Below, one piece after another: positions 1,093 through 19,067 of a stretch of 19,067 nt of DNA; within the stretch, counting starts at the first letter, position 1, and the number at the start of each line of letters is the position of its first letter. A model generated the notes under the pieces. It searched no databases. It saw only the letters and a program-made list of their open reading frames with translations, and was not told where the DNA came from. The DNA is taken from assembly GCA_043822305.1 (NCBI GenBank), contig JBDRBU010000052.1, positions 1 to 19,067 of the forward strand, read 5' to 3'. Origin of the DNA: Candidatus Firestoneibacteriota bacterium (GTDB lineage Bacteria > Oederibacteriota > D2-FULL-39-29 > JBDRBU01). The position numbers and the translations under genes were made by a program.

Positions 1093-1770
1093 ATGTTTAA
1101 AAAATATTCAATAGGAATTGATTTTGGGACAAATTCTGTAAGAACTTTAATAGTTGATATTTCAAATGGAAAAGAAATAGGTACATATGTTTTTAATTAT
1201 GAAAAAGGAGAAAATGGAATTATACTTGATAAGAAAAACCCACTTGTGGCCAGACAGCATCCAGCAGATTATCTTAAAGGATTAGAAGTTTCAATAATTG
1301 GGGCATTAAAGCAATCAGATAAAGTTAAGGGATTTAAAAGATCTGATGTTATAGGTCTAGGAGTAGATACAACAGGAAGTACCCCCATGCCGGTTGATGA
1401 AAAAGGAATCCCTCTTGCCTTAAAAAAAGAATTTAAAAATAATATTAATGCACTCTCCTGGTTATGGAAAGACCATTCAAGTTATAAAGAAGCACAAGAA
1501 ATTACTGAATTAGCCATAAAAAGAGGAGAGCCATATTTAAATAAATGTGGCGGTGTTTACTCATCCGAATGGTTTTTTTCTAAAATTCTTTATTGTTTAA
1601 AAAAAGATTCTAAAGTTTTTGATTCTGCATATACCTGGGTTGAATTAGCAGATTTTATACCTGCTGTTTTAACCGGGGTTCAGAAACCAGAAGAAATCAA
1701 AAGAAGTATATGTGCTGCCGGACATAAAGCGATGTTTAATTCAAATATATATTTATCCAAAGGTTTATAA
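1093..1770 (+). pseudogene. araB: 3'-truncated ribulokinase (FGGY carbohydrate kinase N-terminal part)
   Basis: IGIDFGTNSVR, GVDTTGSTPMPVD, WKDH, YSSEWF and CAAGHKAM motifs; SD AGGAG at 1081-1085. Only 225 aa, whereas AraB is typically about 550 aa. Homology ends near 1740. Confidence 0.85.
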
Positions 1771-2670
1771 TTTTTATTTAAAATAAACACAGTAGTTGAG
1801 TTAGGAAATTTATCTAAAATCTGCCCGTTTGGAGTGCAGTTAAGGTCCTGAATTTTTTCTGTTTTAATATTTGGATTTGTTGCAAAATCCATTTTTTCAC
1901 CTTTAAGATGATATTTAAACCAATTAACTGTTTCCTGCCTTAATTTATCTGAATAACTATGAGTTGTTTTGCTTATGACAAGCCTTAATTTTTTGGTTGC
2001 ATTATATAATGAGTATATTTTTTTTGCTCTTTCATATGATTTTATGGTGCCTTCTATACAAAAGAAATCATATGCATTTGCTCCAATCTGAACAGGTTTG
2101 GGTGCCATGGCCGTAATGAAATCATCATGATTTATCCCATTTTTTATTGCACCAAAAATATTTTGCTCAGCATCATGTTCTTGTCCAGTCTTCATATATT
2201 CATATCTTGATGTAATATATGAACAAGGTATAGCGCATTTTATTCTGGTATCTATCATCATTAGATACGAAGTTTGAGTTCCACCACCCGAATTTCCTGT
2301 TACACCAATTTTATTTTTATCAACTTCATCTCTTGAGATTAAATAATCTATTCCTCTTATTCCATCCCAGATGAAATATCTTGCTATTGATGAGCCACAT
2401 ATTATACATTGAAATCCTGCATAACTATGTTCTGTTGTTCCCCATTCCACATCTCTTTTTTTAGTTTTTGGATTGCAATACTGCATTCTTTCACCCTGAC
2501 CAAGTGGGTCTATAACTAATACTACAAATCCATTAAGAACAAGGTCAATGCAAACTTTCTGATATTCTGGATATGCCTTAGCTTCTTTAGTATGACCGCA
2601 TACAAATAATATTCCTGGTGCTTTTCTAATTAAATTTTTAGGAATGTAAAGGTTTGATGTTACAAATATT
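1741..2670 (-). pseudogene. Internal fragment of an acetyl xylan esterase-like alpha/beta hydrolase
   Basis: Nucleophile elbow GVTGNSGGGTQT. The frame extends upstream of the called Met (2486) as IFVTSNLYIP...LFVCGH...DPLGQGER to about 2670, then hits TAA at 2702-2700 without a start. The 3' end runs into antisense araB sequence. Confidence 0.75.
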
Positions 2671-4025: not shown

Positions 4026-4934
4026 ATGAGTGCGATACTATTAGATGGAGAAAGTTTAGCAAGAAAAATTAAAGAAGGGTTGAAAAAAGAAATAGAAGAT
4101 TTTAAGTCCAAAGGAAAATTGTTAACTTTAGTTGCTATTCAGGTAGGAGAAAATCCAGCTTCGCGAGTTTATGTTAACCAGCAGAAAAAAGCGTGTGAAG
4201 AGATGGGATTAGTTTATAGTTTAAAAGAACTACCAGCAACTACAACTGAATTAGAACTTATAAATGTAGTAGAAAGTTTAAATAAAGATGTTTTTGTAAC
4301 GGGGATAATACTTCAAATGCCATTACCACAAAACATGAATCCAAAAAATGTGCAGGTTAAAATTTCTCCAGAAAAAGATGTAGAAGGACTTAATCCATAT
4401 AATATAGGATTACTTGTTTACGGTAAACAAAAAGTTGCACCCTGCACGGCCATGGGAGCCGTAGAACTTTTAAAAAGTAGTGGAGTTGAATTAAAAGGAA
4501 AAGAAGTTGTAATAGTAGGGCATAGTGAGATTGTAGGAAAACCTATAACTTTGCTTATGCTTCAATCACTTTTGGAATCTCCAACTCCTACAATATGTCA
4601 CATCGCAACTAAAGACCTGTCATTTCATACAAAAAGAGCAGATATAGTTTTTGTTGGTGTAGGAAAGCCGGGTTTAATAAAAGGTGATATGTTAAAAGAA
4701 GGTTCAATAGTTATTGATATAGGGATAAATAGAATACCTGTGTTGAACGAAAAGGGTGAAAAAATAATAGATGAAAAATCAGGGAAGCCTAAAATGAAAA
4801 CAGTAGGTGATGTTGAATTTGAAAAAGCGAAAGAAATTTGTTCTTATATTTCACCTGTGCCGGGTGGAGTTGGTCCACTTACAGTAACCATGCTTATTAA
4901 AAATACAGTAGAGTGTGCCAAGTGGCAGGGATGA
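4026..4934 (+). CDS. folD: Methylenetetrahydrofolate dehydrogenase (FolD family)
   Basis: GIILQMPLP, EKDVEG, PCTAMG, IDIGINR, GDV and SPVPGGVGPLT motifs; SD AGGAGG upstream. Confidence 0.96.
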   Translation: MSAILLDGESLARKIKEGLKKEIEDFKSKGKLLTLVAIQVGENPASRVYVNQQKKACEEMGLVYSLKELPATTTELELINVVESLNKDVFVTGIILQMPLPQNMNPKNVQVKISPEKDVEGLNPYNIGLLVYGKQKVAPCTAMGAVELLKSSGVELKGKEVVIVGHSEIVGKPITLLMLQSLLESPTPTICHIATKDLSFHTKRADIVFVGVGKPGLIKGDMLKEGSIVIDIGINRIPVLNEKGEKIIDEKSGKPKMKTVGDVEFEKAKEICSYISPVPGGVGPLTVTMLIKNTVECAKWQG

Positions 4935-4982: not shown

Positions 4983-5741
4983 ATGCCGGGAGTAAAGATT
5001 GCGGTGAGTGGTAAAGGAGGGGTAGGCAAGACAACAATATCTTCGCTTTTATCACTTGAGTTTTCAAAGAAGGGGTATAGAGTTCTGGGTGTAGATTGTG
5101 ACCCAAATTCTAATTTAGGTAATTATTTAGGGATAAAAGAAGAAATAAAGCCAATAATTGAGATGCGGTCTTTGATAGAAGAAAGGATGGAAACAAAATT
5201 AGATAGTGTCGGAAATTTTTTTAAATTAAATCCAAAAGTAGATGATATTCCTGACAAATTTTCTAAGAGTATAGATGGAATTAAAGTAATTTCTATGGGG
5301 ACAATAAAAAAAGGCGGAACAGGTTGTGCTTGTCCAGAGAATACTTTTATAAAGTCTTTAGTTAGCCATCTTATTCTACATCGAGATGAAGTTGTGATTA
5401 TGGATATGGAAGCTGGATTGGAACATTTTGGCCGGGGAATGGCTGAAGGGGTTGATTTATTAATTATTGTCGTAGAGCCATCGATGGCCAGTATAGAAAC
5501 GGCCAGAAAGATTAAAAAATTAGCAAAAGATATAAAAATAAAAAAAGTTTTTGTAATAATAAATAAAATAAAAAACGAAAAAGAAAAAGATTATATTTTG
5601 AAATATTTCAATAAGGAAGAAATTTTAGGTGAATTATTTGTAGAAGACAAAATTCGCAATGATTCACTAAATGCTAATTTTCCAGTAAGATTAGGCAAAG
5701 AGAACATAAAAAGGTTTGAAGCAATTGTTTGTGGTTTGTAA
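4983..5741 (+). CDS. cooC: CO dehydrogenase nickel-insertion ATPase CooC
   Basis: Deviant Walker A GKGGVGKTT, DCDP, GCACPE metal-binding CxC, DMEAGLEHFGRG. Confidence 0.92.
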   Translation: MPGVKIAVSGKGGVGKTTISSLLSLEFSKKGYRVLGVDCDPNSNLGNYLGIKEEIKPIIEMRSLIEERMETKLDSVGNFFKLNPKVDDIPDKFSKSIDGIKVISMGTIKKGGTGCACPENTFIKSLVSHLILHRDEVVIMDMEAGLEHFGRGMAEGVDLLIIVVEPSMASIETARKIKKLAKDIKIKKVFVIINKIKNEKEKDYILKYFNKEEILGELFVEDKIRNDSLNANFPVRLGKENIKRFEAIVCGL

Positions 5742-5745
5742 TAAG

Positions 5746-5779
5746 GACAACCCCCTAACCCCCTTTATTAAGGGGGAAT
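5746..5779. repeat. REP-like palindromic repeat, copy 1
   Basis: GACAACCCCCTAACCCCCTTTATTAAGGGGGAAT; stem CCCCCTT/AAGGGGG; near-identical to 10248-10282. Confidence 0.8.
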
Positions 5780-5809
5780 TAAAAATTAGAGGGCTTTACG
5801 GATTATCTT

Positions 5810-6580
5810 ATGTCAATGACTATAGCCATATCAGGTAAGGGTGGGACAGGCAAGACAACAATAGCAGGGTTGCTTGTTAAATATTTAAAATCTTTAAACA
5901 AGAAAAATATTTTAGTCATTGATGCTGACCCTAATTCTAATTTACACAGTGTGTTAGGGATTAAATTAGAAAAAACCATAGGAGATATTATAGAAGAGAT
6001 TAAAGAAAAAGTAGATAAATTACAGGATTTACCGGGCAAGATGTCAAAATCAGAATATATTTCATATGAGTTAGAAAATATTCTGTTTGAAGGAAAAGGG
6101 TTTGATTTTTTATCAATGGGTATGCCAGAAGGGGCTGGCTGTTATTGTTTTATAAATTCAGTTTTAAGGACAGCCATAGATATTTTGACAAAAAGGTATA
6201 ATTTTGTAATAATAGATAATGAGGCCGGGATGGAACACTTTAACAGGAAGACGACACAGAAAGTAGATATACTTTTTATTGTTTCTGATGCAACAGTTAG
6301 AGGAATAAAAACGGCTAACCATATAAAAGAACTAATTAAAAATTTAAAATTAAAAGTTAAAAAAGAATATTTGATAGTAAATAGATTTTTAAAAAGCGAC
6401 AATTTATTAGAAAACGAGATAAAAAATACAGGATTAGAAATACTGGGGTATTTACCCGAAGATGAAATTGTGACTAAATTTGATTTAGAAGGAAAACCAA
6501 TAATTGATATTCCCGAAGATTCAGGAATTTACAAGGAATTAAAAGATGGTCTGGTCAATAAATTGACCAACCATTCCTAA
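5810..6580 (+). CDS. acsF: Second CooC-family ATPase, AcsF-like (ACS maturation)
   Basis: GKGGTGKTT, DADP, MGMPEGAGCYC (PEG.GCYC typical of the AcsF/CooC2 group), DNEAGMEH. Confidence 0.8.
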   Translation: MSMTIAISGKGGTGKTTIAGLLVKYLKSLNKKNILVIDADPNSNLHSVLGIKLEKTIGDIIEEIKEKVDKLQDLPGKMSKSEYISYELENILFEGKGFDFLSMGMPEGAGCYCFINSVLRTAIDILTKRYNFVIIDNEAGMEHFNRKTTQKVDILFIVSDATVRGIKTANHIKELIKNLKLKVKKEYLIVNRFLKSDNLLENEIKNTGLEILGYLPEDEIVTKFDLEGKPIIDIPEDSGIYKELKDGLVNKLTNHS

Positions 6581-6635: not shown

Positions 6636-6917
6636 ATGACAAGTTCTACTATTATTGCAAAAAAATTAGGAATTGAACCAAGAGTACTTGAAAAGGAGAG
6701 TATAAAAACATATTTAGAAAAACATCTTAGATATTTAGAAAGTGAATTATATAATATCGCGGTTAAGTATGAGGTAAAAAATTTTGAGGAATTTATTAAA
6801 CTTATTAATAAGGGCAAAATACACGAAGGAGATAAAGATTGGGAAGATTATTACAAATTTGAAAACATCCAACACAAAAGGGACACAATTATAAAAGTAT
6901 TAAGGTCGTATGAATGA
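6636..6917 (+). CDS. Putative antitoxin of a DUF6516 toxin-antitoxin-like pair
   Basis: 93-aa helical protein with KY...FEEF...WEDY pattern; ATGA overlap with the downstream DUF6516-like gene. Confidence 0.6.
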   Translation: MTSSTIIAKKLGIEPRVLEKESIKTYLEKHLRYLESELYNIAVKYEVKNFEEFIKLINKGKIHEGDKDWEDYYKFENIQHKRDTIIKVLRSYE

Positions 6918-7276
6918 ATAAATTAGAATATTTACAACATTTAGGGCAGATTGTTTATCACAATATAATTGTTGAGACAGAAATCATCGGTTTTAAGTTA
7001 CGTTTTACATTGATAGATGGAAGTTTTATTGATGTTTATTTGCCGGCGAAGGAAAGCAGTGGATTTGCATTTCATTGGGAACATAGACATATAGATAAGT
7101 TGTTTTATCGTTACGATAATTATCCCGATATAAAGTGGCGAAACATTAAAACATTCCCTTATCATTTTCATAATGGTAGACAGGATAAGGTAATTGCAGC
7201 ACATTTTGATAAAGAAGTGATAGAAGGGTTTAAAGATTTTATGGATTTTGTGAGAAGTAAGTTAAAAATCAAATAA
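6914..7276 (+). CDS. DUF6516 (TumE-like) putative nuclease toxin
   Basis: YRYDNYPD...KTFPYHFH matches the RYDN.P....TFPHH.H pattern of DUF6516. Confidence 0.72.
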   Translation: MNKLEYLQHLGQIVYHNIIVETEIIGFKLRFTLIDGSFIDVYLPAKESSGFAFHWEHRHIDKLFYRYDNYPDIKWRNIKTFPYHFHNGRQDKVIAAHFDKEVIEGFKDFMDFVRSKLKIK

Positions 7277-7288
7277 AAAGGAGAAATT

Positions 7289-9196
7289 ATGGAAAACAAT
7301 AATGAAAAAACGATAGACCAGACTTCAATAGAAATGTTGAAGAAAGCAGAAAAAGAAGGGTTGGAAACCGCTTGGGATAGATATGAAATAATGCAGCCAC
7401 AATGTGGTTTTGGAGAACTTGGTCTTTGCTGCAAGATATGTAATATGGGGCCTTGTAGAATTGATCCTTTTGGAGAAGGACCTAAAAGAGGAATTTGCGG
7501 GGCGACAGCGGATATAATCGCGGCTCGTAATCTGGTTAGAATGATTGCTGCTGGTGCGGCTGCCCATTCAGATCATGGCCGGGATATTGCCCAGACATTA
7601 ATTATGGCCGGAGAAGGCAAAACAGATGGTTACAAGATAAAAGACGAGGAAAAATTAAAAGTATTAGCCGAAGAGTTAAAAATAAAAACCGAAGGAAAAG
7701 ATATTAAACAAATCGCTAAAGAAGTAGGAGAAAGGCTTTTATCCGAGTTCGGACAGCAACACGGTAAACTTCATTTTTTTAATCGTGCTCCAAAGAAAAG
7801 ACAGGAAATTTGGGAAAAATTAAATATTCTTTCTCGTGGCATTGATAGAGAGATTGTGGAAATGATGCATAGAACAAACATGGGAGTAGATAATGATGTG
7901 GATAATATTATAAATCATGGCATGAGGACATCTTTAGCTGATGGTTGGGGCGGTTCTATGATTGCCACTGAATTATCAGATATTTTATTTGGTTCTCCTC
8001 AACCAGTTCGTTCTCAAGTTAATCTGGGTGTTTTAAAAGAAGACGAGGTAAATATAGTCGTTCATGGTCATGAACCAACACTTTCCGATGTAGTTGTTGA
8101 AGCATCAAAAGATCCTGAACTAATTGAGTTAGCTAAAAGTAAGGGAGCGAAAGGTATTAATCTTTCTGGTATTTGCTGTACGGCTAACGAAATTTTAATG
8201 AGACATGGGATTCCTATTGCTGGAAATTTTTTACAACAGGAATTAGCCATATGCACTGGTGCGGTAGATGTGATGTTAGTTGATGTGCAGTGTGTTTTTC
8301 CTGCCCTTGGCTCATTAGCTGAGTGCTTTCATACGAAAATTATTTCCACCTCGCCCAAAGCTAAATTCCCCGGGGTTGAACATATAGAGTTTAAAGAAGA
8401 AGAAGCTCTGGCTATGGCTAAAAAGATTATTCGTCTAGCCATAGAAAACTTTCCAAACAGAAAAAAAGAAAAGGTTTATATTCCATCTAATAAAATGGAC
8501 TTAGTTGCAGGTTTTACAACCGAGAATGTTTTTTATAATCTGGGCGGAAAGTATAGACCAAGTTACCGACCTTTAAATGACGCTATCATATCAGGAAGGA
8601 TAAGAGGTGCGGTGGGAATAGTTGGCTGCAATAACCCAAAAATAAAACAGGACTTTGGACATGTAGAAATGGCCAAGGAACTTTTAAAGAATGATGTCTT
8701 GATAGTTGTTACCGGTTGTTCAGCTATTGCTGATGCTAAAGCCGGGCTTTTAATTCCAGAAGCAGCGTTTGAATATGCAGGAAAAGGATTACAGGAAGTA
8801 TGCAGGGCTGTTGGGATACCACCTGTCCTTCATATGGGTTCATGTGTTGATATTAGCCGAATTTTAAATGTTTTGTGTAATGTTGTGAGCGAAGGTGGTC
8901 TGGGTGAAGATATATCTGATTTACCTGTGGCTGCAGCTGCTCCTGAATGGATGAGTGAGAAAGCCGTAGCCATTGCCTTTTATGCCGTGGCCTCTGGTGT
9001 ATTTACAGTTCTGGGTGTCCCTTTCCATATTTTAGGAGGCAAACAAATTACAGAATTACTTACCGATAAAATAGAAAAACTTGTTGGAGCAAAATTTGCT
9101 TTTGAATCTGATCCTATAAAAGCGTCACATTTAATAATCGAACATCTTAACAAAAAAAGAGAGAATTTAAAATTAAAACCAATGATGTATGAGTAA
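7289..9196 (+). CDS. cooS: Anaerobic Ni,Fe carbon monoxide dehydrogenase catalytic subunit (AcsA/CooS)
   Basis: D/B cluster CGFGELGLCCKICNMGPC...GIC; HSDH; C-cluster ligands HGHEP, GICCT, DVQC, GCNN, TGCS, GSCVD; PEWMSEKA. Confidence 0.97.
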   Translation: MENNNEKTIDQTSIEMLKKAEKEGLETAWDRYEIMQPQCGFGELGLCCKICNMGPCRIDPFGEGPKRGICGATADIIAARNLVRMIAAGAAAHSDHGRDIAQTLIMAGEGKTDGYKIKDEEKLKVLAEELKIKTEGKDIKQIAKEVGERLLSEFGQQHGKLHFFNRAPKKRQEIWEKLNILSRGIDREIVEMMHRTNMGVDNDVDNIINHGMRTSLADGWGGSMIATELSDILFGSPQPVRSQVNLGVLKEDEVNIVVHGHEPTLSDVVVEASKDPELIELAKSKGAKGINLSGICCTANEILMRHGIPIAGNFLQQELAICTGAVDVMLVDVQCVFPALGSLAECFHTKIISTSPKAKFPGVEHIEFKEEEALAMAKKIIRLAIENFPNRKKEKVYIPSNKMDLVAGFTTENVFYNLGGKYRPSYRPLNDAIISGRIRGAVGIVGCNNPKIKQDFGHVEMAKELLKNDVLIVVTGCSAIADAKAGLLIPEAAFEYAGKGLQEVCRAVGIPPVLHMGSCVDISRILNVLCNVVSEGGLGEDISDLPVAAAAPEWMSEKAVAIAFYAVASGVFTVLGVPFHILGGKQITELLTDKIEKLVGAKFAFESDPIKASHLIIEHLNKKRENLKLKPMMYE

Positions 9197-9319: not shown

Positions 9320-10234
9320 ATGAAAGAATTTTTTTCAGGTCTTGTTAAAGGATTGATTATGTTTGTGTTGATAGTTTCAATCTCTGCGGCTAAAAAAAGA
9401 ATTTGTGTCATAGATTTTGAAGATAAAACATCTGGACAACATCATGGTTGGCGGGAAGTAGGCAAGGGTATGTCGGATATGCTCGTTACATCGTTAATAA
9501 AATCTAACAAATTTATGGTTATTGAGAGAGAAAAATTAACAAAAATTATGGAAGAGCAAAAACTCGGTGCTACTGGTGCTGTCACACCTCAAACAGCAGC
9601 AAAAATAGGTACTTTACTTGGAGTTAGTTATATCGTTACAGGAAGTGTAAGTGAGTTTGGTATAAAAGAAAGTAAGTTAGGTATTGGTAATTTAGGAGGA
9701 CTCTTACCTTTTGGTGGTGGAATTGACACAAGAACAAACACGGCAAAAGTAGCCGTAGATATTAGATTGATAGATACTTCAACATCACAAATAATTAGAG
9801 CAGAAAAAGGAGAAGGAGAAGAATCAAGCACTGGTGTATCTATTGATTTAAGTATAGCTCCCAGCGTGGATTTTGGAAAAGATGGATTTGATGAAACGGT
9901 TATAGGAAAGGCAACTCGTAAAGCAATAGATATTGTAGCCAAAGTAATTATTGAAGAAGAAGCCAAGATGCCGTGGACAGCAAGAATTATGAAAATCTCA
10001 GGTAATCAAATTTATCTTAATTCCGGCGAGGAAGATGGAGAAAAAGTTGGGAGGATAATGGGTATATATAGAAGAGGAGAAGAATTAGTAGATCCAGATA
10101 CTGGAGTGTCACTTGGTGCTGAAGAGAAAAAGATGGGAATAGCCAAGACAGTAAAGGTTGAAAAGAAATTTTCCATTGCTGAAACAGATGCGAAAGATTT
10201 ATTACAAAGTGATTATTTAAAAGAAGAGAAGTAA
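9320..10234 (+). CDS. Secreted CsgG/HfaB family protein with FlgT-C-like C-terminal domain
   Basis: Signal-peptide-like N-terminus; KKRICVIDF, LVTSL..SNKFMVIERE, YIVTGSVSEFG, VAVDIRLIDT; C-terminal IYLNSG...LVDPDTGVSLG. Confidence 0.85.
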   Translation: MKEFFSGLVKGLIMFVLIVSISAAKKRICVIDFEDKTSGQHHGWREVGKGMSDMLVTSLIKSNKFMVIEREKLTKIMEEQKLGATGAVTPQTAAKIGTLLGVSYIVTGSVSEFGIKESKLGIGNLGGLLPFGGGIDTRTNTAKVAVDIRLIDTSTSQIIRAEKGEGEESSTGVSIDLSIAPSVDFGKDGFDETVIGKATRKAIDIVAKVIIEEEAKMPWTARIMKISGNQIYLNSGEEDGEKVGRIMGIYRRGEELVDPDTGVSLGAEEKKMGIAKTVKVEKKFSIAETDAKDLLQSDYLKEEK

Positions 10235-10247
10235 AAAAGGAAGGGAA

Positions 10248-10282
10248 GACAACCCCCTGGGCCCCCTTTAATAAGGGGGAAT
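10248..10282. repeat. REP-like palindromic repeat, copy 2
   Basis: GACAACCCCCTGGGCCCCCTTTAATAAGGGGGAAT; same stem and orientation as 5746-5779. Confidence 0.8.
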
Positions 10283-10306
10283 ATGGGAATATAAAAAGGA
10301 GAAAAG

Positions 10307-11254
10307 ATGAAAATAGATGTGAAATCAGAAATACTTAAAGCAGTGGAAATAATAAAATTAAACAAGGAAGCAATAAAAGAGGTTTACGAAAGAAAAGAAT
10401 CTAATTTACCTGCTTTATTGATTGTGCTGATATGTGGTTTAATACCTGGTGTTTTTAGATTAAGTGTTTTAGGAATTATTATTGGGCCACTTCTTGCTTT
10501 AATTGGAACAGGAATTTATACGGCTATTATTTTTATTCTTGCTTTAATATTTGGAGGCAAAGGTTCTTACTCAAAATTGTTTAGAGTGATCGGCTATGCG
10601 TGTATGTTAGGCTGGCTTGGCTTTATTCCATTTGTGGGTTGGTTACTTTGTTTATGGATTTTAGTAGTTACTTTTATTGCTTTACAAACAAATTTTAATA
10701 TGTCTAAGGTGAAAGCAGGTCTAGTAGTGTGTATACCTGTTGTTATATGGATTATTATTTTTTTGGTTGCAATGGCTGCAGTATTACTTTTTAAAAATTT
10801 TAATAAGTTTTTACCAATGGCTGCAAAATTAGGGGGAAGTTGTAAAACAGATGAAAAGAAAACGGATACGACAAAAGAACAAATAGGAGGATATAAAGAA
10901 TTAGCAGAAGTAATTAAAAAAGCAGCAGAGATATCAGAGAAAAATTTTAAAATTCCAGATGATATTCCTATATATAAAAATTCAGAGGCCGGAACTGTGT
11001 TTTTTTATGAGGATGGAGGAACTGCAGAATTTTCATCGTCAGATAATGTTGGGAAAGTTAAAGAGTTTTATATGAAAGCCCTAAAAGAAAAAGGATGGAA
11101 AATAGTGGAGAGTATGAAAGTAGAAAATTTAAACATGTATTCAGTTTCAGCAGAAAAAGGTAATGATGATTTAGAAATCAAAATTTCAAATTTAGAGGAA
11201 GGAAAAAATAAAACTTATATTAGCATTTCATTATCAAAAAAAGACAAAAAATAA
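10307..11254 (+). CDS. Yip1-domain membrane protein with C-terminal soluble domain
   Basis: About five hydrophobic segments with FGGKGSY..LFRVIGYA...IPFVG (Yip1 pattern); hydrophilic tail with IPDDIPIY...FY..AL.EKGW. Confidence 0.75.
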   Translation: MKIDVKSEILKAVEIIKLNKEAIKEVYERKESNLPALLIVLICGLIPGVFRLSVLGIIIGPLLALIGTGIYTAIIFILALIFGGKGSYSKLFRVIGYACMLGWLGFIPFVGWLLCLWILVVTFIALQTNFNMSKVKAGLVVCIPVVIWIIIFLVAMAAVLLFKNFNKFLPMAAKLGGSCKTDEKKTDTTKEQIGGYKELAEVIKKAAEISEKNFKIPDDIPIYKNSEAGTVFFYEDGGTAEFSSSDNVGKVKEFYMKALKEKGWKIVESMKVENLNMYSVSAEKGNDDLEIKISNLEEGKNKTYISISLSKKDKK

Positions 11255-11324: not shown

Positions 11325-13514
11325 ATGTCAAAGATTATTGCTACAAGAGCTATAAGAGGTGCACATAGTATAGTTAATAAGGCAGAAGGGTTTTATAAAA
11401 AAATGTTAGCGGAGAAAGGGCCTGATGTAAAAGTAGGGTTTCCAGACACGGCGTATTATCTGCCATTTATATATGCTATGTTAGGGTTAAAAATCACAAA
11501 ATTAGGAGAATTAGATTATGTCTTAAAATATTCTAAAAGTCTGCTGGCACCAATTCCAGATGAAAAGATATGGCTTCCGTATCTGGGAAATGTTTTAGAT
11601 TGTGGCATGGCCACATTATTTGCGGAAGAAATAATTGAAGTGTTAAAATATTTAGAGAGGCCGGATTTTGTTAAAGAACCATGGTTAGGATTTACAAATG
11701 ATTCAATCTTAAGAGAGCAGGGTATAAAACTTGTAGATGGCCGGATGCCGGGTTTTGCTGCCCTGGTTGGTGCTGCTCCTTCAGTAGATGAAGCCGTTAA
11801 ATTAGTCAGGTCATTACAGGAAAGACAAATATTGGTATTTATTGGAGGTCATACCCATGGTGTGAGCATAGCCGAGCAGTTAAATGAAGCAGGAATTCAA
11901 ATGGGATGGGATACTTTTATTGTTCCATATGGTAAGGATATTTATTCTGCAATTTATGCTTTAAATTTTGCTTTAAGAGGTGCTATGGCTTTTGGAGGGA
12001 TAACACCAAAAGGTAGAAAAGAAGCAACAGAACTTTTGCTTTATAATAAAAAAAGAGTTTATGCTTTTGTCATTGCCTTAGGAGAAGTAGATGATGAGAA
12101 ATTTGCAACAGCAGCAGGTGCTATAAACTTTGGATTTCCTACTATTGCAGATACTGATATTGACCAAATCCTTGTAACAGGTGTTTGCACTTACGAGCAT
12201 GTTGTTTCTCCTGTTACATTAGATAAGATAGTAGAAAAATCAGTAGAAGTTAGAGGATTAAAAATAAAAATGGAAAAACCTCCTATTCCTGTATCATATG
12301 GTGCTGCCTTTGAAGGAGAAAGAGTTAGAAAAGAACAACTGGCCTTAGAAATTGGTAGTAAGGTTTCAAAAGCATTTGAATATTTAAGAATGAAAGATAT
12401 GAATCAGATTGAAAATGGTAAAGTTGAAGTAATAGGTCCTGAGATTGATACTGTCTCTGAGGGGGGCAGTCTTCCCCTGGCCATAATTATTGATGTCGCC
12501 GGAAGAAAAATGCAAAAAGATTTTGAAACAATATTAGAGCGAAGAATCCACACATTTTTAAGTGAGGCCAGTGGCGTGATGCATATAGGTCAAAGAAATA
12601 TGATCTGGATTAGAATCAGTAAAGAAGCAAAACAAGCAGGATTCAAACTAAAACATCTGGGTGTGATTTTAAACACAAAACTACTTTCAGAATTTCCGGC
12701 TATAGTTGATAAATCACAGGTTACAATATATACGAACTTAGAAGATATAGAAAAGCATTTACCAGAAGCAATAGATGCTTATAATCAACGAGATGAAAGA
12801 GTTTCCGGGTTAACAGATGAAAGTGTTGATATATTTTATTCCTGTACGCTCTGTCAATCATATGCACCAAATCATGTCTGTATGATTACCCCGGAAAGAT
12901 TGGGTTTATGTGGTGCATATAACTGGCTTGATGGAAAAGCAGCCTATGAGATTAATCCCAATGGTCCAAACCAGCCCATAGCCAAAGGAACTTGCCTAGA
13001 ACCAGTGAAAGGTCAATGGGAAGGTGTAAATAAAGCCGTGAATGAAAAATCAAATAGAGCCTTAGAAAAATTTAATGCATATTCTATTATGGATTTTCCA
13101 ATGACCTCTTGCGGTTGTTTTGAATGTATAGTTTGCGTTTTACCCGAGGCAAATGGTGTGATGATTGTCAACAGAGGATTTTCTGGAATGACTCCTATTG
13201 GTATGACATTTTCTACACTGGCTGGTTCGGTTGGAGGTGGACAGCAAACACCCGGATTTACCGGAGTTGGAAGATTATATTTAACCAGTAAAAAGTTTAT
13301 ATCTGCGGAGGGTGGGCTACATCGAATTGTGTGGATGACAAAAGAATTAAAAGAAGGGCTGGGAGAACGATTAAAGAAAAGAGCCGAAGAATCTGGCACG
13401 CCCGATTTTATAGAAAAAATTGCAGATGAAACTATGGCGACCACAGTTGAAGAATTAGTTCCATTTTTACAGAAAGTAAATCATCCGGCATTAACCATGC
13501 CTTCAATAATGTAA
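11325..13514 (+). CDS. acsB: Acetyl-CoA synthase (bacterial-type, 729 aa)
   Basis: FPDTAYYLP; A-cluster ligands SCTLCQSYAPNHVC, GLCG and MTSCGCFEC; SD AGGAGGT. Confidence 0.97.
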   Translation: MSKIIATRAIRGAHSIVNKAEGFYKKMLAEKGPDVKVGFPDTAYYLPFIYAMLGLKITKLGELDYVLKYSKSLLAPIPDEKIWLPYLGNVLDCGMATLFAEEIIEVLKYLERPDFVKEPWLGFTNDSILREQGIKLVDGRMPGFAALVGAAPSVDEAVKLVRSLQERQILVFIGGHTHGVSIAEQLNEAGIQMGWDTFIVPYGKDIYSAIYALNFALRGAMAFGGITPKGRKEATELLLYNKKRVYAFVIALGEVDDEKFATAAGAINFGFPTIADTDIDQILVTGVCTYEHVVSPVTLDKIVEKSVEVRGLKIKMEKPPIPVSYGAAFEGERVRKEQLALEIGSKVSKAFEYLRMKDMNQIENGKVEVIGPEIDTVSEGGSLPLAIIIDVAGRKMQKDFETILERRIHTFLSEASGVMHIGQRNMIWIRISKEAKQAGFKLKHLGVILNTKLLSEFPAIVDKSQVTIYTNLEDIEKHLPEAIDAYNQRDERVSGLTDESVDIFYSCTLCQSYAPNHVCMITPERLGLCGAYNWLDGKAAYEINPNGPNQPIAKGTCLEPVKGQWEGVNKAVNEKSNRALEKFNAYSIMDFPMTSCGCFECIVCVLPEANGVMIVNRGFSGMTPIGMTFSTLAGSVGGGQQTPGFTGVGRLYLTSKKFISAEGGLHRIVWMTKELKEGLGERLKKRAEESGTPDFIEKIADETMATTVEELVPFLQKVNHPALTMPSIM

Positions 13515-13524
13515 GGGGGAGATT

Positions 13525-14046
13525 ATGAAGAGAGGAACGATATGGATTGATATAGGAAAATGTGTAGGATGTAAGACTTGTGAACTTCAGTGTGCCGTTG
13601 TTCATTCAAAATCTAAAAATCTTTTTAAAGCAATTTCTGAAGAGCCAATTTCTATTCCACGAATAAAAGTAGAGTCTGTAGGTCAAGGATTTTCAGTTCC
13701 TTTACAGTGTAGACATTGCGAAGATGCTCCTTGCGTAAAAATATGCCCTACAAGAGCATTAGAAAAATCTGATATTGAAAGTCCAGTTTTAATTAATAAA
13801 GAACGTTGTATCGGATGTCGGTTTTGCGTCCAGGTTTGCCCTTTTGGCGTAATAAGAATGGATAAATTAGGAACCACAATTGTTAAATGTGACTTATGCA
13901 TTGAACGTCTTAAAAATAATGAATTACCTGCATGCGTTAGCAGTTGTCCAACACATGTATTAAAGTTTAAATCTTTAGAAGAACAAGTATCCGAGATGAG
14001 GAAAAAGTCAGCTAAATATATGGTTGAATTTGTGAAAGATAACTAA
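13525..14046 (+). CDS. cooF: CooF-like 4x[4Fe-4S] electron transfer protein
   Basis: CVGCKTCELQC, CRHCEDAPCVKIC, CIGCRFCVQVC and CDLC...PACVSSC motifs. Confidence 0.88.
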   Translation: MKRGTIWIDIGKCVGCKTCELQCAVVHSKSKNLFKAISEEPISIPRIKVESVGQGFSVPLQCRHCEDAPCVKICPTRALEKSDIESPVLINKERCIGCRFCVQVCPFGVIRMDKLGTTIVKCDLCIERLKNNELPACVSSCPTHVLKFKSLEEQVSEMRKKSAKYMVEFVKDN

Positions 14047-14065
14047 ACCAAAGGAGAAAGACGGA

Positions 14066-14521
14066 ATGGAAACAGGTTCTATTTTATCTAAATATGAAAA
14101 GAAAAAGGAAAATCTTTTGGCAGTTTTGCAGGATATTCAGGGTGATAAAAATTATCTTCCAAAAGAGGATTTGAAAAAGATTGCTGAAAATTTTAGTGTG
14201 CCTTTAAGTGAACTTTTTTCACTGGCTACTTATTATAAATCTTTTAGTCTTAAACCAAAGGGCAAATACATTATTTTGGTTTGTATGGGAACCGCCTGCC
14301 ATGTCCGTGGTAGTGAAAGAATTTTACAACAACTTGAATTAAAACTTGGTATTAAAGCAGGAGATACTACTTCTGATGGTATGTTTAGTCTTGAGACTGT
14401 TAACTGTTTAGGTGCCTGTGCTTTAGGACCTTTAGTTGTTGTTAATAGTAAGTATTTTGGGAATATGACGACATCTAAAATAGGAAGAATATTAAAGGAG
14501 TATCTAAGTGGAAAAGATTGA
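14066..14521 (+). CDS. NuoE/HydC-like [2Fe-2S] subunit
   Basis: CMGTACHVRG...NCLGACALGP thioredoxin-like [2Fe-2S] motif. Confidence 0.92.
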   Translation: METGSILSKYEKKKENLLAVLQDIQGDKNYLPKEDLKKIAENFSVPLSELFSLATYYKSFSLKPKGKYIILVCMGTACHVRGSERILQQLELKLGIKAGDTTSDGMFSLETVNCLGACALGPLVVVNSKYFGNMTTSKIGRILKEYLSGKD

Positions 14522-16358
14522 GAGTATAGAGCAGTTAGAAAGACTAAGAAGTGAGATTATTTTAGCCAAAGACCCTAATAAAACTTGCATTGCTGTATGT
14601 TGTGGAACAGGATGTTCGGCTTCTGGGGCAGTACAAGTAATAGAATCTTTCAAAGAAGAAATGAAAAAACAGAATTTAGGAGTAGAAGTATTAGGTCGTT
14701 CAACAGGATGTCAGGGTTTTTGTGAAAGAGGACCTATTGTTCTTATATTTCCAAAAAAGATTTTTTACCAAAAGGTTACTCCAGAAGATGTTCCTGAAAT
14801 TATTTCTGAAACAGTAGTTAATGGTAGAATTGTTGAAAGATTGTTGTATAAAGACGCCTCTACTGAAGCTACAATTACACATATGGAGGATATACCTTTT
14901 TATAAGAAGCAGCGCCGGGAGCTTTTTGCAAATACGGCTCTTATAAATCCACTAAATATCTATGATTATATCTCTTTAGATGGTTATTTAGCATTATCTA
15001 AAGCACTTAAGATGAAACCAGAAGAAATTATAGAAGAAATAAAAAAATCCGGGCTACGTGGTAGAGGTGGTGCAGGATTTCCTACAGGCAGAAAATGGGA
15101 GTCGTGTAGAAAAGCAGAGGGAACTCCTAAATATGTGATATGTAATGCTGATGAAGGAGACCCTGGTGCATTTATGGATAGAAGTTTACTTGAAGGAAAT
15201 CCCCATTCCGTTTTAGAAGGAATGATAATAGGTGCTTATGCGGTTGGCTCAAATTATGGTTATATATATGTACGAAATGAATATCCATTAGCAATTAAAC
15301 ATTTTAGTACTGCTTTAGAACAAGCAGAGGGATTAGGCTTTTTAGGGGAAAATATTTTAGGATCAGGTTTTGATTTTAATATAAAGATAAGCAAGGGTGG
15401 TGGAGCATTTGTATGCGGTGAATCATCTGCTTTACGAGCTTCTATTGAAGGTCGTCTTGGTGAACCATCTGTTAAATATATTCATGCTACTGAAAAAGGT
15501 TTATATGAAAAGCCTACAGTACTTAATAATGTAAAAACCTGGGCAGCAGCAACATTAATCATTAATAAAGGAGCAGACTGGTTTAATAGTATTGGCACGG
15601 AGAAAAGTAAAGGAACTATGATTTTTTCTTTAGTTGGAAAAGTTAATAATACTGGTTTGGTTGAAGTTCCGATGGGAATAAAATTAAGAGAATTAATCTA
15701 CGACATTGGTGGTGGTATCATCGGTGGTAAAAAATTTAAAGCAGTTCAAAGTGGTGGCCCATCTGGTGGATGTATTCCGGAGAGTCTTTTAGATTTACCT
15801 GTTGACTATGAAGCATTAATAGAAGCAGGTTCTATGATGGGTTCTGGTGGAATGATTGTCATGGATGAAACTACCTGTATGGTTAATGTTGCCAAGTATT
15901 TTATTTCTTTTACACAAGAAGAATCCTGTGGAAAATGTGTTCCCTGTCGTGAAGGAATAAAACATATGCTAAATATTTTAAAAAGGATTACAGAAGGCAA
16001 GGGAGAAGAAGGAGATATTGAATTTTTAGAAAAGATAGGCGAGATGGTAAAGAAAACTTCTTTATGTCAGCTAGGTATCTCAGCACCAAATCCAGTATTG
16101 TCAACTATTAGATATTTTAGGGATGAATATTTGGCACATATAAAAGATAAAAAATGTCCAGCGAAAGTATGCACTGCTTTGATTAATTATTTTATTATTG
16201 AAAATAAATGTACTGGGTGTGTGGTTTGTGTAAAAGCCTGTCCTCAAAATGCAATAAGTGGTGAACGGAAAAAACCGCATATAATAGAGCAAAGTAAATG
16301 TATAAAATGCGGAATTTGTGAAAGTGTATGTAATTTTGATGCAATTGAGGTGAGATGA
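14508..16358 (+). CDS. NuoF/HydB-like FMN/NAD(H)-binding subunit with extra FeS domains
   Basis: N-terminal CCGTGC...CQGFC; SGLRGRGGAGFPTG; NADEGDPGAFMDR; GGPSGG; ESCGKCVPCREG...C; C-terminal 2x[4Fe-4S]. GTG start with SD AAGGAG. Confidence 0.94.
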   Translation: MEKIESIEQLERLRSEIILAKDPNKTCIAVCCGTGCSASGAVQVIESFKEEMKKQNLGVEVLGRSTGCQGFCERGPIVLIFPKKIFYQKVTPEDVPEIISETVVNGRIVERLLYKDASTEATITHMEDIPFYKKQRRELFANTALINPLNIYDYISLDGYLALSKALKMKPEEIIEEIKKSGLRGRGGAGFPTGRKWESCRKAEGTPKYVICNADEGDPGAFMDRSLLEGNPHSVLEGMIIGAYAVGSNYGYIYVRNEYPLAIKHFSTALEQAEGLGFLGENILGSGFDFNIKISKGGGAFVCGESSALRASIEGRLGEPSVKYIHATEKGLYEKPTVLNNVKTWAAATLIINKGADWFNSIGTEKSKGTMIFSLVGKVNNTGLVEVPMGIKLRELIYDIGGGIIGGKKFKAVQSGGPSGGCIPESLLDLPVDYEALIEAGSMMGSGGMIVMDETTCMVNVAKYFISFTQEESCGKCVPCREGIKHMLNILKRITEGKGEEGDIEFLEKIGEMVKKTSLCQLGISAPNPVLSTIRYFRDEYLAHIKDKKCPAKVCTALINYFIIENKCTGCVVCVKACPQNAISGERKKPHIIEQSKCIKCGICESVCNFDAIEVR

Positions 16359-17137
16359 TGAATATAACTATTGACGGAAAAGAAATAGTTAGTGATAAAG
16401 GTAAAACTATCCTTGAATTAGCCAAGGAGTCTGGAATAAAAATTCCTACATTATGTTATCATCCAGCCTTAGAACCATATGGTGGATGTAGGCTTTGTCT
16501 GGTTGAGATTACAAAAGAAGTATGGAAAGGATGGTCTAAATTAGTAGTCTCATGTGCTTATCCAGCAGAGGATGGACTAATTGTTAAAACAAATTCTTCA
16601 GAGGTTATAGAGGCGCGTAAATTTATAATAGAACTTCTTTTAGCTCGTACACCTTCTGCTAAAACAATTCAAGATCTTGCCAAAGAATATGGAATTGAAA
16701 AAAGTAAGTTTGCAGAAATTGCAGAAATGAAAGAAGATAAAGATTCTTTGAAGAATTGCATTCTCTGTGGTTTATGTGTTCGTGTTATTGGTGCTAATGT
16801 GATAAGTCTTGCTTATAGAGGAGTTACTCGTAAGGTTATGACACCTTACAATGAAGCATCGGATGTTTGCTTAAATTGTGGAGCATGTGCTTTTGTGTGT
16901 CCGACAGGAGCAATTGAAATTAATGATATTATTCCTTATCGTAAAATAACTGCCTGGCATACAGAGAGTGAACTTAAACAATGTTCTTTATGTGAGAAGT
17001 ATTTTGTTCCTGTAATTTTGCATAATAAGTTGAAAGAAAAAGTTAACATAAATTTAGATTTAAATTTACTGGATTTATGTCCTGACTGTAGAAGAAAAAA
17101 GATAGGGACAACTACTATTCTTAACTTATGTAAATGA
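16355..17137 (+). CDS. Short NuoG/HydA-N-terminal-like FeS protein lacking a catalytic domain
   Basis: IPTLC...GGCRLC...SC [2Fe-2S]; CILCGLC and CLNCGACAFVCP; C-terminal CSLC...CPDC; no H-cluster or molybdopterin motifs. Confidence 0.88.
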   Translation: MMNITIDGKEIVSDKGKTILELAKESGIKIPTLCYHPALEPYGGCRLCLVEITKEVWKGWSKLVVSCAYPAEDGLIVKTNSSEVIEARKFIIELLLARTPSAKTIQDLAKEYGIEKSKFAEIAEMKEDKDSLKNCILCGLCVRVIGANVISLAYRGVTRKVMTPYNEASDVCLNCGACAFVCPTGAIEINDIIPYRKITAWHTESELKQCSLCEKYFVPVILHNKLKEKVNINLDLNLLDLCPDCRRKKIGTTTILNLCK

Positions 17138-17344: not shown

Positions 17345-18676
17345 ATGGCTTTAACAGGATTAGAGATATTTAAATTACTTCCTAAAACTAATTGTGGCAA
17401 ATGCGGTTCACCTACCTGTTTAGCGTTTGCTATGAGATTAGCCGCAAAAAAGGCAAATATTGATGAATGCCCGGATATATCTTCTCAAAGTAAATCTGCA
17501 CTTGGTGCTGCGTCTGCTCCACCGATAAGACTTGTTACCATTGGAGCAGGTGAAGACAAGTTAGAAGTTGGGAATGAAACAGTTTTATTTAGGCATGAGC
17601 AAACTTTTTATCATCCAACTGGACTGTGTATTCTTTTGGAAGATACTGACTTAAGTTTAGAAAATAAAATTACAGAAATAAATAATTTAATCTTTGAAAG
17701 AGTTGGACAAATTTTAAAAGTTAATTTGATTGCCTTAAAAAATTCTTCAAATGATGTTTCTAAATTTACTGATGCAGTTAAAATTATAACAGAAAAGAGT
17801 AAATTACCATTAATATTAATCTCAGATAATCCAAATGCCATAGAAGAAGGATTAAAAATATCTGCAAGCGGGAAACCTCTGGTTCATTCAGCAAATTTAT
17901 CTAATTATGAAAAAATGGCTAATTTATCAAAACAGTATAATGTTCCATTAGTTGTTTCTGGTAAAAACTTAGATGAGTTATCTGATTTAACACAAAAAAT
18001 AACTTCTTTAGGTGTTTCTGATTTAATATTAGAAGTTGATAAAGGAGATTTTGTTTCTAATTTATCTGATTTAGTTCAAATTAGAAGATTAGCTTTAAAG
18101 AAAACTTATAGACCTTTAGGTTATCCTGTATTAGCAAAAGTTTTAAATACTTCTTCTTATGATGAATTGTTTCAGGTCTCAACCTATATTTGTAAATATG
18201 CAAGTATAGTTATTCTTTCTGGTATGGAATTATGGGAACATTTATCGCTTCTAACTTTAAGACAAAATATTTATACTGACCCTCAAAAACCAATTCAAGT
18301 AGAATCCAAAATATATGATATAGGAGCAGTTTCAGATAATTCACCGGTTTTAGTTACTACTAATTTTTCTTTAACATATTCTTTGGTATCAGGAGAAGTA
18401 GAAGCATCTCGTATTCCAAGTTATATAATTGTTATCAATACCGAGGGAATATCTGTTTTAACTGCCTGGGCAGCAGATAAGTTTAATGCAGAGGTTATTA
18501 CAAAATACTTAAAAGAATCCGGTATTGATGGCAAAATTAAACATAAAAAAGTAATTATACCTGGTGGTGTTGCTGTAATCAGTGGAAAGTTACAGGAACT
18601 TTCCGGCTGGGAAGTTTTAGTAGGAACAAGGGAAGCAACAGGAATACCAGCGTTTTTGAAAGGATTAAAAAATTAA
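17345..18676 (+). CDS. acsC: Corrinoid iron-sulfur protein large (gamma) subunit
   Basis: LPKTNCGKCGSPTCLAFA...CP [4Fe-4S]; RQNIYTDPQKP; TTNFSLTY; SVLTAWAADKF. Confidence 0.96.
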   Translation: MALTGLEIFKLLPKTNCGKCGSPTCLAFAMRLAAKKANIDECPDISSQSKSALGAASAPPIRLVTIGAGEDKLEVGNETVLFRHEQTFYHPTGLCILLEDTDLSLENKITEINNLIFERVGQILKVNLIALKNSSNDVSKFTDAVKIITEKSKLPLILISDNPNAIEEGLKISASGKPLVHSANLSNYEKMANLSKQYNVPLVVSGKNLDELSDLTQKITSLGVSDLILEVDKGDFVSNLSDLVQIRRLALKKTYRPLGYPVLAKVLNTSSYDELFQVSTYICKYASIVILSGMELWEHLSLLTLRQNIYTDPQKPIQVESKIYDIGAVSDNSPVLVTTNFSLTYSLVSGEVEASRIPSYIIVINTEGISVLTAWAADKFNAEVITKYLKESGIDGKIKHKKVIIPGGVAVISGKLQELSGWEVLVGTREATGIPAFLKGLKN

Positions 18677-18696
18677 CCTCTTAACATTATACCGCT

Positions 18697-18949
18697 ATGG
18701 CGAACCGATATGTAGCAGGAATTGGTTGGGGGAACTGCAACATTGATTGAAACTGATAATGGAGATGTTTACAACCCCCAGATAGCCGTAGATACAAATG
18801 GAAATGGGATTGCGGTTTGGTGTCAGTATGATGGGACGAGGGATAACATTTGGGCGTACCGATATGTAGTAGGAACTGGTTGGGGAACTGCAGCATTGAT
18901 TGAAGCTGATAATGGAGATGTTTACAAGGTTCTTCAGGTTCTATTGTAG
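18697..18949 (+). pseudogene. Frameshifted relic of a 51-aa-repeat (beta-propeller-like) surface protein gene
   Basis: 153-bp period: 18704-18774 matches 18858-18927 (RYV.G.GWGTA.LIE.DNGDVY). Copy 1 has an extra G in the G-run at 18728-18732. No RBS or start. Confidence 0.7.
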
Positions 18950-18980
18950 AGATGTAATAGGATAGGATGGATCTTTGAAA

Positions 18981-19035
18981 TAGAAAGTATCTGTTAAATC
19001 CTGTATAATATAAATAAAAACATATTATACGGAGG
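18981..19035 (+). promoter_or_regulatory. Putative promoter with overlapping inverted repeat and SD for a gene leaving the window
   Basis: TAGAAA (18981-86), 17 bp, TATAAT (19004-09); IR GTATAATA (19003-10)/TATTATAC (19023-30); GGAGG 19031-35. Confidence 0.55.
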
Positions 19036-19045
19036 AAAATGACAG

Positions 19046-19067
19046 ATGCTTAACAAGGATTATGTAA
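19046..19067 (+). CDS. Start of a CDS running off the window (MLNKDYV...)
   Basis: ATG 10 nt after GGAGG, open to the window end. The nearer ATG at 19039 stops after 4 codons. Confidence 0.4.

What the first reader, a model, noticed from the sequence alone, without database searches (positions are those of the whole stretch)
13525..17137. CooF plus HydCBA-like bifurcating module with no catalytic head, embedded between acsB and acsC: candidate electron-bifurcating CODH/ACS
Seen: cooF, a NuoE-like, a NuoF-like and a short NuoG-like gene are tightly packed (overlaps at 14508-14521 and 16355-16358) inside the Wood-Ljungdahl cluster. The NuoF-like subunit has an N-terminal [2Fe-2S] domain, ADEGDPGAFM, GGPSG, the C...H...CP...C metal site and a C-terminal 2x[4Fe-4S] domain. 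Known: these features characterise bifurcating HydB/Bfu-family subunits (HydABC, HylABC-Fdh) rather than complex I NuoF. Seen: the third subunit has no H-cluster or molybdopterin domain. Inference: the catalytic partner is CODH via CooF, coupling CO/CO2 to NAD(H) and ferredoxin and supplying reductant to the methyl branch. CODH-linked Bfu modules have been predicted bioinformatically, but I know of no characterised one fused into an ACS operon.
Basis: partly seen in the sequence, partly recalled or inferred. Interest (0 to 1): 0.82.

Follow-up and report, generated by a model that had tools for sequence, protein, structure and literature searches.

The report
Bifurcating-type module inside CODH/ACS genes
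Four genes inside this bacterium's acetyl-CoA-pathway cluster encode an NADH/ferredoxin electron-splitting module that is probably wired to CO dehydrogenase, an enzyme type predicted in print but never purified; this copy has lost one iron-sulfur ligand and may be damaged.

Summary
Observation confirmed. The genes are CooF plus a complete BfuC-BfuB core (all FMN/Fe-S ligands) and a short BfuA that matches WorA of the bifurcating aldehyde oxidoreductase (TM 0.82; zinc finger plus docking helix). The partner is most likely CODH. 33 of 68 loci with a short BfuA lie next to cooS/acsB (22 next to acsB, named ones in four phyla), against 0 of 92 others. CooF and BfuA group with CODH-linked homologues, away from WorS/HytE. 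The genome's formate dehydrogenase has its own Bfu set. The class is already predicted (Codh-Bfu, PMC9304861; CodhABCSF, PMC12318220), and this scan has reported the ACS-embedded form in at least ten earlier findings on other DNA. All 119 database homologues keep that Cys, so this copy may be impaired. Bifurcation, binding and direction are untested; complex prediction and reads were unavailable.

The parts
4026..4934 (+). [quoted passage not shown]
   Evidence: Pfam THF_DHG_CYH and THF_DHG_CYH_C
4983..6580 (+). two CooC/AcsF-type ATPases (Ni insertion; name from family knowledge and context)
   Evidence: CbiA/MinD-type hits; homologues sit in the same clusters elsewhere
7289..9196 (+). cooS/acsA, Ni-CO dehydrogenase; the only copy found in the genome; proposed catalytic head
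   Evidence: TIGR01702 720 bits against cut-off 478; single copy; B/C/D-cluster motifs present (motif roles recalled)
11325..13514 (+). acsB, acetyl-CoA synthase
   Evidence: NF040764 above cut-off; A-cluster Cys motifs present
13525..14046 (+). cooF, 4x[4Fe-4S] wire (16 Cys) with a predicted C-terminal helix 151-171; homologue of WorS/HycB
   Evidence: groups with CODH-linked CooFs, apart from WorS and HytE
14066..14521 (+). bfuC (NuoE/HydC-like), C1 [2Fe-2S]: C73, C78, C114, C118
14508..16358 (+). bfuB (HydB-like): B5 C31/C36/C68/C72, FMN/NAD site, B1 C474/C477/C480/C520, B2 (Thr type, probably Zn) C457/H544/C550/C555, B3 and B4
16143..16358 (+). C-terminal B2-B3-B4 (ferredoxin-docking) part of bfuB, homogenised with the genome's Fdh-linked bfuB on C14
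   Evidence: 192 of 216 nt and 61 of 71 aa identical, against 254 of 415 aa in the core
16355..17137 (+). short bfuA of the WorA type: A1 [2Fe-2S], A2, no A3, A4 with three Cys only, zinc finger C210/C213/C242/C245, C-terminal helix 243-259
   Evidence: full-length match to 9mqx_A; model pLDDT 90, TM 0.82, rmsd 2.6
16786..16787 (+). junction of a 12-nt in-frame deletion (four residues, including the fourth Cys of the first ferredoxin motif, the remote ligand of A4)
   Evidence: Cys kept in 119 of 119 database homologues, 68 of 68 locus copies and 20 of 20 clostridial copies
17345..18676 (+). acsC, corrinoid Fe-S protein large subunit
   Evidence: NF003195 above cut-off

Best explanation
This is an ACS-associated Codh-Bfu, a Type 2 BfuABC module whose catalytic head is the CooS of the CODH/ACS complex. 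Proposed path: C-cluster of CooS, then CooF (four [4Fe-4S], possibly stacked as a short wire), then BfuA A4-A2-A1 (docked on CooF by the helix after the zinc finger, as WorA docks on WorS), then BfuB B1/FMN, with NAD(H) at FMN and ferredoxin at B3/B4 via C1. Net reaction: 2 CO + NAD+ + 2 Fd(ox) <-> 2 CO2 + NADH + 2 Fd(red). Alone, the NADH/ferredoxin pair (about -390 mV) is too weak to make free CO (-520 mV). With ACS drawing off CO the effective couple rises to about -320 to -365 mV, so the module could halve the ferredoxin cost of the carbonyl branch, or recover some ferredoxin during acetyl-CoA oxidation. Shown: gene set, ligands, fold, synteny, ancestry. Inferred: binding, coupling, direction. 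In this genome the A4 entry cluster has lost one ligand, so the copy is weakened, altered (for example to a three-iron cluster) or misassembled; I put its chance of working at about one half.
For: All BfuBC ligands present, best structural relatives all bifurcating enzymes. BfuA equals WorA in length, clusters, zinc finger and helix. 33 of 68 short-BfuA loci carry cooS or acsB against 0 of 92 others; 11 are flanked on both sides by CODH/ACS genes. The window's BfuA and 32 of the 33 CODH-linked locus copies, plus 4 clostridial ones, share one branch (SH-aLRT 93; 8 unassigned copies also inside) apart from Wor, Hyt and Hdr types. CooF falls with CODH-linked CooFs, away from WorS (98) and HytE (99). 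Rival heads are absent or self-sufficient: Fdh has its own BfuABC, no FeFe or NiFe hydrogenase was found in a 96.8% complete genome, and the AOR has no WorS neighbour. A free 2[4Fe-4S] ferredoxin exists. The two BfuB paralogues share a homogenised ferredoxin-docking domain. CooF binds CODH tightly in R. rubrum (PMC4652020, passages). Energetics; potentials from PMC9304861 Table 1, ACS free energy recalled.
Against: No biochemical data for any member. The A4 ligand is deleted in this copy and there is no A3 as a second route. cooS lies 4.3 kb upstream of cooF, with two unrelated genes and acsB between; none of the 33 loci has this order. One of the sequence criteria of PMC7311640 is not met (His326 where bifurcating HydB has Phe; WorB also has His). 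The Met at 223 is Gln in 45 of 120 homologues, including the nearest CODH-linked locus L041. Three CODH-linked loci (L094, L117, L185) have a BfuB without B2/B3/B4 motifs, so CODH-CooF-BfuA can be wired to a probably non-bifurcating core. On the nine loci with all three genes, BfuA and CooS distances correlate weakly (rho 0.22, 223 of 2000 shuffles as high).
Confidence: 0.6

Rival explanations
1. The module is wired to CODH but does not bifurcate. It is a CO:NAD+ oxidoreductase (diaphorase) that drains electrons from CO or acetyl-CoA oxidation into NADH only.
For: CO can reduce NAD+ directly (PMC9304861). The Phe criterion is not met and Met223 varies in the subfamily. Three CODH-linked loci lack B2-B4.
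Against: All six BfuBC clusters and GGPSG are kept. WorB shares the His variant and bifurcates. The ferredoxin-docking domain is intact and homogenised with the Fdh-BfuB.
Confidence: 0.15
2. The family works as proposed, but this genome's copy is dead or dying because the A4 cluster cannot form.
For: Unique loss of an otherwise invariant Cys. The cluster is broken up by inserted genes and a mobile-element end. ACS was found in only 2 of 40 relatives, none of 11 in the same order.
Against: The deletion keeps the frame. There is no excess of changes against the closest relative in BfuB (22 against 23) or BfuA (7 against 3, p 0.34). BfuB, BfuC and CooF ligands are intact. An assembly error cannot be excluded.
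Confidence: 0.15
3. The module serves another partner encoded elsewhere: the AOR on C77, the Hdr-Flx complex on C103, MetVF, or the 11-subunit complex I as its NADH input module.
For: These partners exist in the genome. The BfuB lineage also serves Wor, Hyt and HdrA systems.
Against: CooF and BfuA group with CODH-linked forms. BfuA lacks the His-ligated A3/N5 cluster and the large C-terminal domain of NuoG. Hdr-linked relatives mostly carry BfuA fused to HdrA.
Confidence: 0.1

Closest known systems
Codh-Bfu / CodhABCSF, predicted only (Schut et al. 2022, PMC9304861, parts 1-6 of 9 read plus a supplement search; Feng et al. 2025, PMC12318220, parts 1-4 of 7 plus passages)
   Same: BfuABC plus CooS and CooF; Type 2 BfuA without A3; zinc finger and helix predicted to dock CooF. 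CooF and BfuA of four clostridial loci with the published layout (cooS-cooF between bfuB and bfuA; L221-L223, L226) group with the window's.
   Different: Published examples are four sequences, clade 49, Firmicutes only, proposed for CO oxidation or detoxification; the four clostridial loci show no acs gene in the 11-16 kb fetched. Here the module lies among acs genes, and BfuB belongs with Wor/Hyt/Hdr-linked forms; holding it with the clostridial BfuB is rejected (p-AU 0.0012). No named clade-49 reference sequence was in the tree.
WorABCSL of Acetomicrobium mobile (PDB 9MQX)
   Same: Short A subunit with A1, A2, A4, zinc finger and adaptor helix (37% identity, TM 0.82); same His variant near FMN in B; CooF is a WorS homologue.
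   Different: The head is a Ni-CODH, not a tungsten enzyme; this copy lacks one A4 ligand; coupling is unproven here.
NiFe-HydABCSL (7T2R) and FeFe-HydABC (8A6T, 7Q4V, 7P5H)
   Same: BfuBC core; 7t2r_B is the best sequence match of BfuB (824 bits, against 789 for WorB).
   Different: No hydrogenase head, no A3, no large C-terminal domain in A; Thr495 in place of the fifth B2 ligand.
CooS-CooF of Rhodospirillum rubrum and Carboxydothermus hydrogenoformans (PMC4652020, passages)
   Same: CooF as the dedicated electron carrier of CODH.
   Different: There CooF feeds a membrane hydrogenase; here it sits beside an NAD/ferredoxin module.

Membership tests
BfuABC family (PMC9304861) | BfuB with FMN domain, SLBB, B1 and C-terminal 4Fe-4S domains; BfuC with one [2Fe-2S] | tested here: met
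BfuABC family (PMC9304861) | Ligands of B1-B5, including the B2 His | tested here: met
   C457/H544/C550/C555 align with C438/H525/C531/C536 of 7t2r_B; Thr495 variant
BfuABC family (PMC9304861) | Obligate coupling of NAD+ and ferredoxin reduction | not testable with these tools
   needs enzyme assay
Bifurcating beta subunits (PMC7311640) | A/E at 232 and M at 234; GGPSG at 427-431 | tested here: met
   A221, M223, GGPSG from residue 416
Bifurcating beta subunits (PMC7311640) | Phe (not Tyr) at position 367 | tested here: not met
   His326, placed by alignment to 7t2r_B; His in 119 of 120 homologues and in bifurcating WorB
Type 2 Bfu, WorA-like | BfuA with A1 and A2, no A3, zinc finger and C-terminal helix | tested here: met
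Type 2 Bfu, WorA-like | Intact A4 entry cluster (four Cys) | tested here: not met
   three Cys only in this copy; met in the 88% identical P0002 and all other homologues examined
Codh-Bfu | [quoted passage not shown] | tested here: met
   33 of 68 related loci carry cooS or acsB, 23 carry cooS
Codh-Bfu | BfuB in the lineage of the published clostridial layout (clade 49) | tested here: not met
   p-AU 0.0012 against grouping with L221-L223 and L226
Codh-Bfu | Physical complex of CooS, CooF and BfuABC | not tested
Complex I N module (NuoEFG) | Short NuoF; NuoG with His-ligated N5 cluster and large C-terminal domain | tested here: not met
   below TIGR01959 and TIGR01973 cut-offs; extra domains in B, missing domains in A

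The most novel reading that the evidence does not exclude
A widespread form of the Wood-Ljungdahl carbonyl branch in uncultured anaerobes of several phyla, in which the ACS-bound CODH is plugged through a CooF nanowire into an obligately bifurcating NADH/ferredoxin core recruited independently of the published clostridial Codh-Bfu. CO2 reduction to acetyl-CoA would then need half the usual ferredoxin, made possible only by ACS pulling CO away, and hosts tune the ferredoxin-docking domain by gene conversion between their Bfu paralogues.
Probability: 0.4. Interest if true: 0.8.

Novelty: new variant of a known kind. Interest (0 to 1): 0.5.

Why it matters
Energy budgets of acetogens and acetate oxidisers assume that CODH/ACS uses ferredoxin alone. 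A bifurcating input would change those budgets for many subsurface lineages, including this one, in which no Rnf membrane subunits and no hydrogenase were found. It would also offer a way to drive CO2 reduction partly from NADH. The idea is in print for CODH-Bfu clusters and untested; the ACS-embedded form gives a thermodynamic reason for it and many candidate operons. This particular copy is a poor test subject because of the A4 lesion, though it is a natural control.

Tried and rejected
Complex prediction of BfuA with CooF: tool not available, no verdict. Sequencing runs to check the deletion or expression: none was listed. General decay of bfuB, suspected from NNVKT and GEPS: rejected; Lys343 is the majority state (76 of 120) and Ser321 is shared with 5 relatives; deviations at conserved columns are ordinary (23 of 120 have as many); rates are not raised. 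Mirror-tree test: BfuA/BfuB distances tracked CooS on unmatched sets (rho 0.5-0.8) but were inconclusive on the matched set of nine; not used as support. Promoter scan: 59 sites against 68 expected by chance; no + strand terminator-like site between acsB's end and acsC; uninformative. CooF model is poor (pTM 0.56; rmsd about 14 to homologues); only its C-terminal helix was used. Literature: nine searches ran; none listed a purified Codh-Bfu or a description of the ACS-embedded module as bifurcating. Only passages were read in PMC6344411, PMC13056359, PMC6305446, PMC7325909, PMC9324843, PMC6085454, PMC5736913, PMC6203783, PMC4652020 and bioRxiv 765248; section 17 and passages in PMC7311640. Most subscription journals, figures, and Supplementary Table 1 of PMC9304861 (not among the text found) were not seen and may list acs-linked members. 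The ACS free energy was not found in print and is recalled. Rows dropped from trees: the first BfuB tree used 91 of 137 rows (45 Hdr-linked dropped at random); the second kept 10 Hdr-linked and 8 unassigned rows and left out 3 long FeFe branches. In one search, 15 of 251 genomes were not scored, and 20 of 39 matches were fetched.
Full report
Observation. The window is one whole contig (C52) of a 2.15-Mb genome rated 96.8% complete. Gene order on the + strand is folD, two CooC-type ATPases, a small gene pair with a TumE domain, cooS, a CsgG-like and a Yip1 gene, acsB, the four genes in question, and acsC. The rest of the pathway is on other contigs: acsV-acsD-acsE on C75, an RnfC2/MetV/MetF set on C121, fhs beside hdrABC-mvhD-flx on C103, and a formate dehydrogenase with its own Bfu genes on C14 (the names acsV, rnfC2 and flx are my labels from sequence and context). 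No FeFe or NiFe hydrogenase and no RnfD/E were found.

The core. The 616-aa subunit's best solved relatives are all bifurcating enzymes: NiFe-HydB 7t2r_B (824 bits), WorB 9mqx_B (789) and HydB 8a6t_B (788); complex I NuoF scores under 380. It has ligands for B5, B1, B2 (C457, H544, C550, C555, with Thr495 at the variable place), B3 and B4, and BfuC has the four C1 ligands. Of the residue criteria in PMC7311640, A221, M223 and GGPSG are met. The Phe site is His326, as in WorB and 119 of 120 homologues. BfuB shows no sign of decay.

The adaptor. The 260-aa subunit matches WorA (9mqx_A) over its whole length, and its model superposes at TM 0.82. In WorABCSL this subunit lacks A3, ends in a zinc finger and a helix that recruits WorS, and takes electrons in by S4-A4-A2-A1 (PMC12318220). 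The window's protein has the zinc finger (C210, C213, C242, C245) and a predicted helix at 243-259. CooF is a WorS/HycB homologue with 16 Cys and a predicted C-terminal helix.

The lesion. Four residues are missing after V144 (between 16786 and 16787), including the fourth Cys of the first ferredoxin motif. By the usual ferredoxin pattern (recalled) this Cys is the remote ligand of A4. It is present in 119 of 119 database homologues, including the 88% identical P0002, in 68 of 68 locus copies and in 20 of 20 clostridial copies. With no A3 there is no second entry route. No sequencing run was listed to test the assembly. The frame is kept and substitution rates are not raised, so the options are a recent lesion, a tolerated three-Cys cluster, or an assembly error.

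The partner. Of 160 related loci (best 80 of 495 and 80 of 428), 68 carry a short stand-alone BfuA (at most 340 aa; the pattern was loose and let through some proteins without the zinc finger). 33 of the 68 carry cooS or acsB, 22 carry acsB and 23 cooS; 0 of the other 92, mostly HdrA fusions, do. Eleven are flanked on both sides by CODH/ACS genes; usual orders are cooS-cooF-bfuCBA-acsB and cooF-bfuCBA-cooS-acsB, and none has the window's acsB-cooF order. Named acsB-bearing loci come from Planctomycetota, Spirochaetota, Chloroflexota and Ca. Firestonebacteria. Among 40 relatives of this genome, 2 have acsB; the same-class genome G012 has a short bfuA directly upstream of it at a contig end, while G014 has none in the fetched contig apart from a formate-dehydrogenase-type set. 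In trees, BfuA falls in a branch holding nearly all CODH-linked copies (SH-aLRT 93, below the starred level), and CooF falls with CODH-linked CooFs, apart from WorS and HytE. The genome's AOR has no WorS neighbour, and its Fdh carries its own catalytic BfuA. A mirror-tree test on matched loci was inconclusive. Binding could not be predicted.

Ancestry. Four clostridial loci have the layout described in PMC9304861, cooS-cooF between bfuB and bfuA, without acs genes in the fetched stretch. Their BfuA and CooF group with the window's, but their BfuB does not. The window's BfuB lies in a starred clade (97-98) with Wor-, Hyt- and HdrA-linked forms, and forcing it together with the clostridial ones is rejected (p-AU 0.0012). 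The CODH-docking half is therefore shared, and the flavin core differs in origin; direction and order of events are not established. The last 71 residues of BfuB are 61 of 71 identical (192 of 216 nt) to the genome's Fdh-BfuB, whereas the cores are 254 of 415 identical, and of 120 homologues only the closest relative exceeds 49 of 71. This points to gene conversion in the domain proposed to bind ferredoxin, older than the split from P0121. It fits both modules using one host ferredoxin (one candidate on C123) but does not prove selection.

Mechanism. With the potentials in PMC9304861 (CO -520, ferredoxin -500, NADH -280 mV) the mixed donor averages -390 mV, 25 kJ short per CO at standard state. 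A recalled ACS free energy of -30 to -38 kJ/mol lifts the effective couple to -365 to -323 mV. Confurcating CO2 reduction is thus feasible only when tied to ACS, which gives a reason for the embedding; the reverse would let acetyl-CoA oxidation yield some ferredoxin. Direction cannot be read from the genome.

Prior knowledge. Codh-Bfu was predicted in 2022 (four sequences, Firmicutes) and the CooF-nanowire model in 2025, stated there to be unpurified. NuoEFG-like COGs are listed among neighbours of Wood-Ljungdahl CODHs (PMC6344411), and nuoEF near CODH/ACS was noted in NPL-UPA2 (PMC6305446). My nine searches listed no characterised enzyme. This scan has reported the ACS-embedded module in at least ten earlier findings on other DNA; those are unchecked notes, not support.

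Verdict. A real, widespread, untested variant of a predicted enzyme class. CODH partnership about 0.85, bifurcation given that about 0.75, function of this copy about 0.5. Interest 0.5.

Noticed in passing
window 18690-19067 and G000:C75 8800-10517: After acsC comes a piece of a repeat-protein gene cut at about 18927 by a 140-nt element found at many contig ends. C75 holds the same repeat family just upstream of acsV-acsD-acsE, so the two contigs are probably neighbours split by a mobile element.
   Followed up: partly
L001 11870-13717 (G000:C14) and window 16143-16358: Apparent gene conversion between the ferredoxin-docking domains of the Fdh-linked and CODH-linked bfuB paralogues.
   Followed up: yes
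L094, L117 (Methanospirillum stamsii), L185: cooF-cooS-bfuC-bfuB-bfuA-cooC clusters, two of them in Methanomicrobiales, whose BfuB lacks B2, B3 and B4 motifs; possibly a non-bifurcating CO:NAD(P) oxidoreductase in a cultured methanogen.
   Followed up: partly
L221-L223, L226: Clostridial Codh-Bfu loci have bfuC on the opposite strand, and BfuA has a CxxxC spacing in its first ferredoxin motif.
   Followed up: partly
P0122, P0123: Close BfuB relatives with an altered N-terminal B5 motif (first Cys lost, second shifted), which may change the core's coupling.
   Followed up: no
G000:C121 9779-11761: A 661-aa protein joining a MetV-like N terminus to an RnfC-like domain upstream of metV-metF, in a genome with no RnfD/E found.
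   Followed up: no
window 6636-7276 and 9320-11254: A small gene pair with a TumE toxin domain between cooC and cooS, and CsgG-like plus Yip1 genes between cooS and acsB, interrupt the cluster.
   Followed up: no
window 1093-2486: A truncated FGGY sugar kinase overlaps an opposite-strand hydrolase fragment near 1680-1770, suggesting a rearrangement or misjoin.
   Followed up: no
L028 9024-16223: In G012 a Hyf/Ehr-like membrane complex lies directly beside acsB, on the side opposite the short bfuA.
   Followed up: no
77 of the 160 loci L040-L199: The same BfuCB core with the BfuA part fused to HdrA, beside mvhD and flx genes, is the commonest context of this lineage.
   Followed up: no
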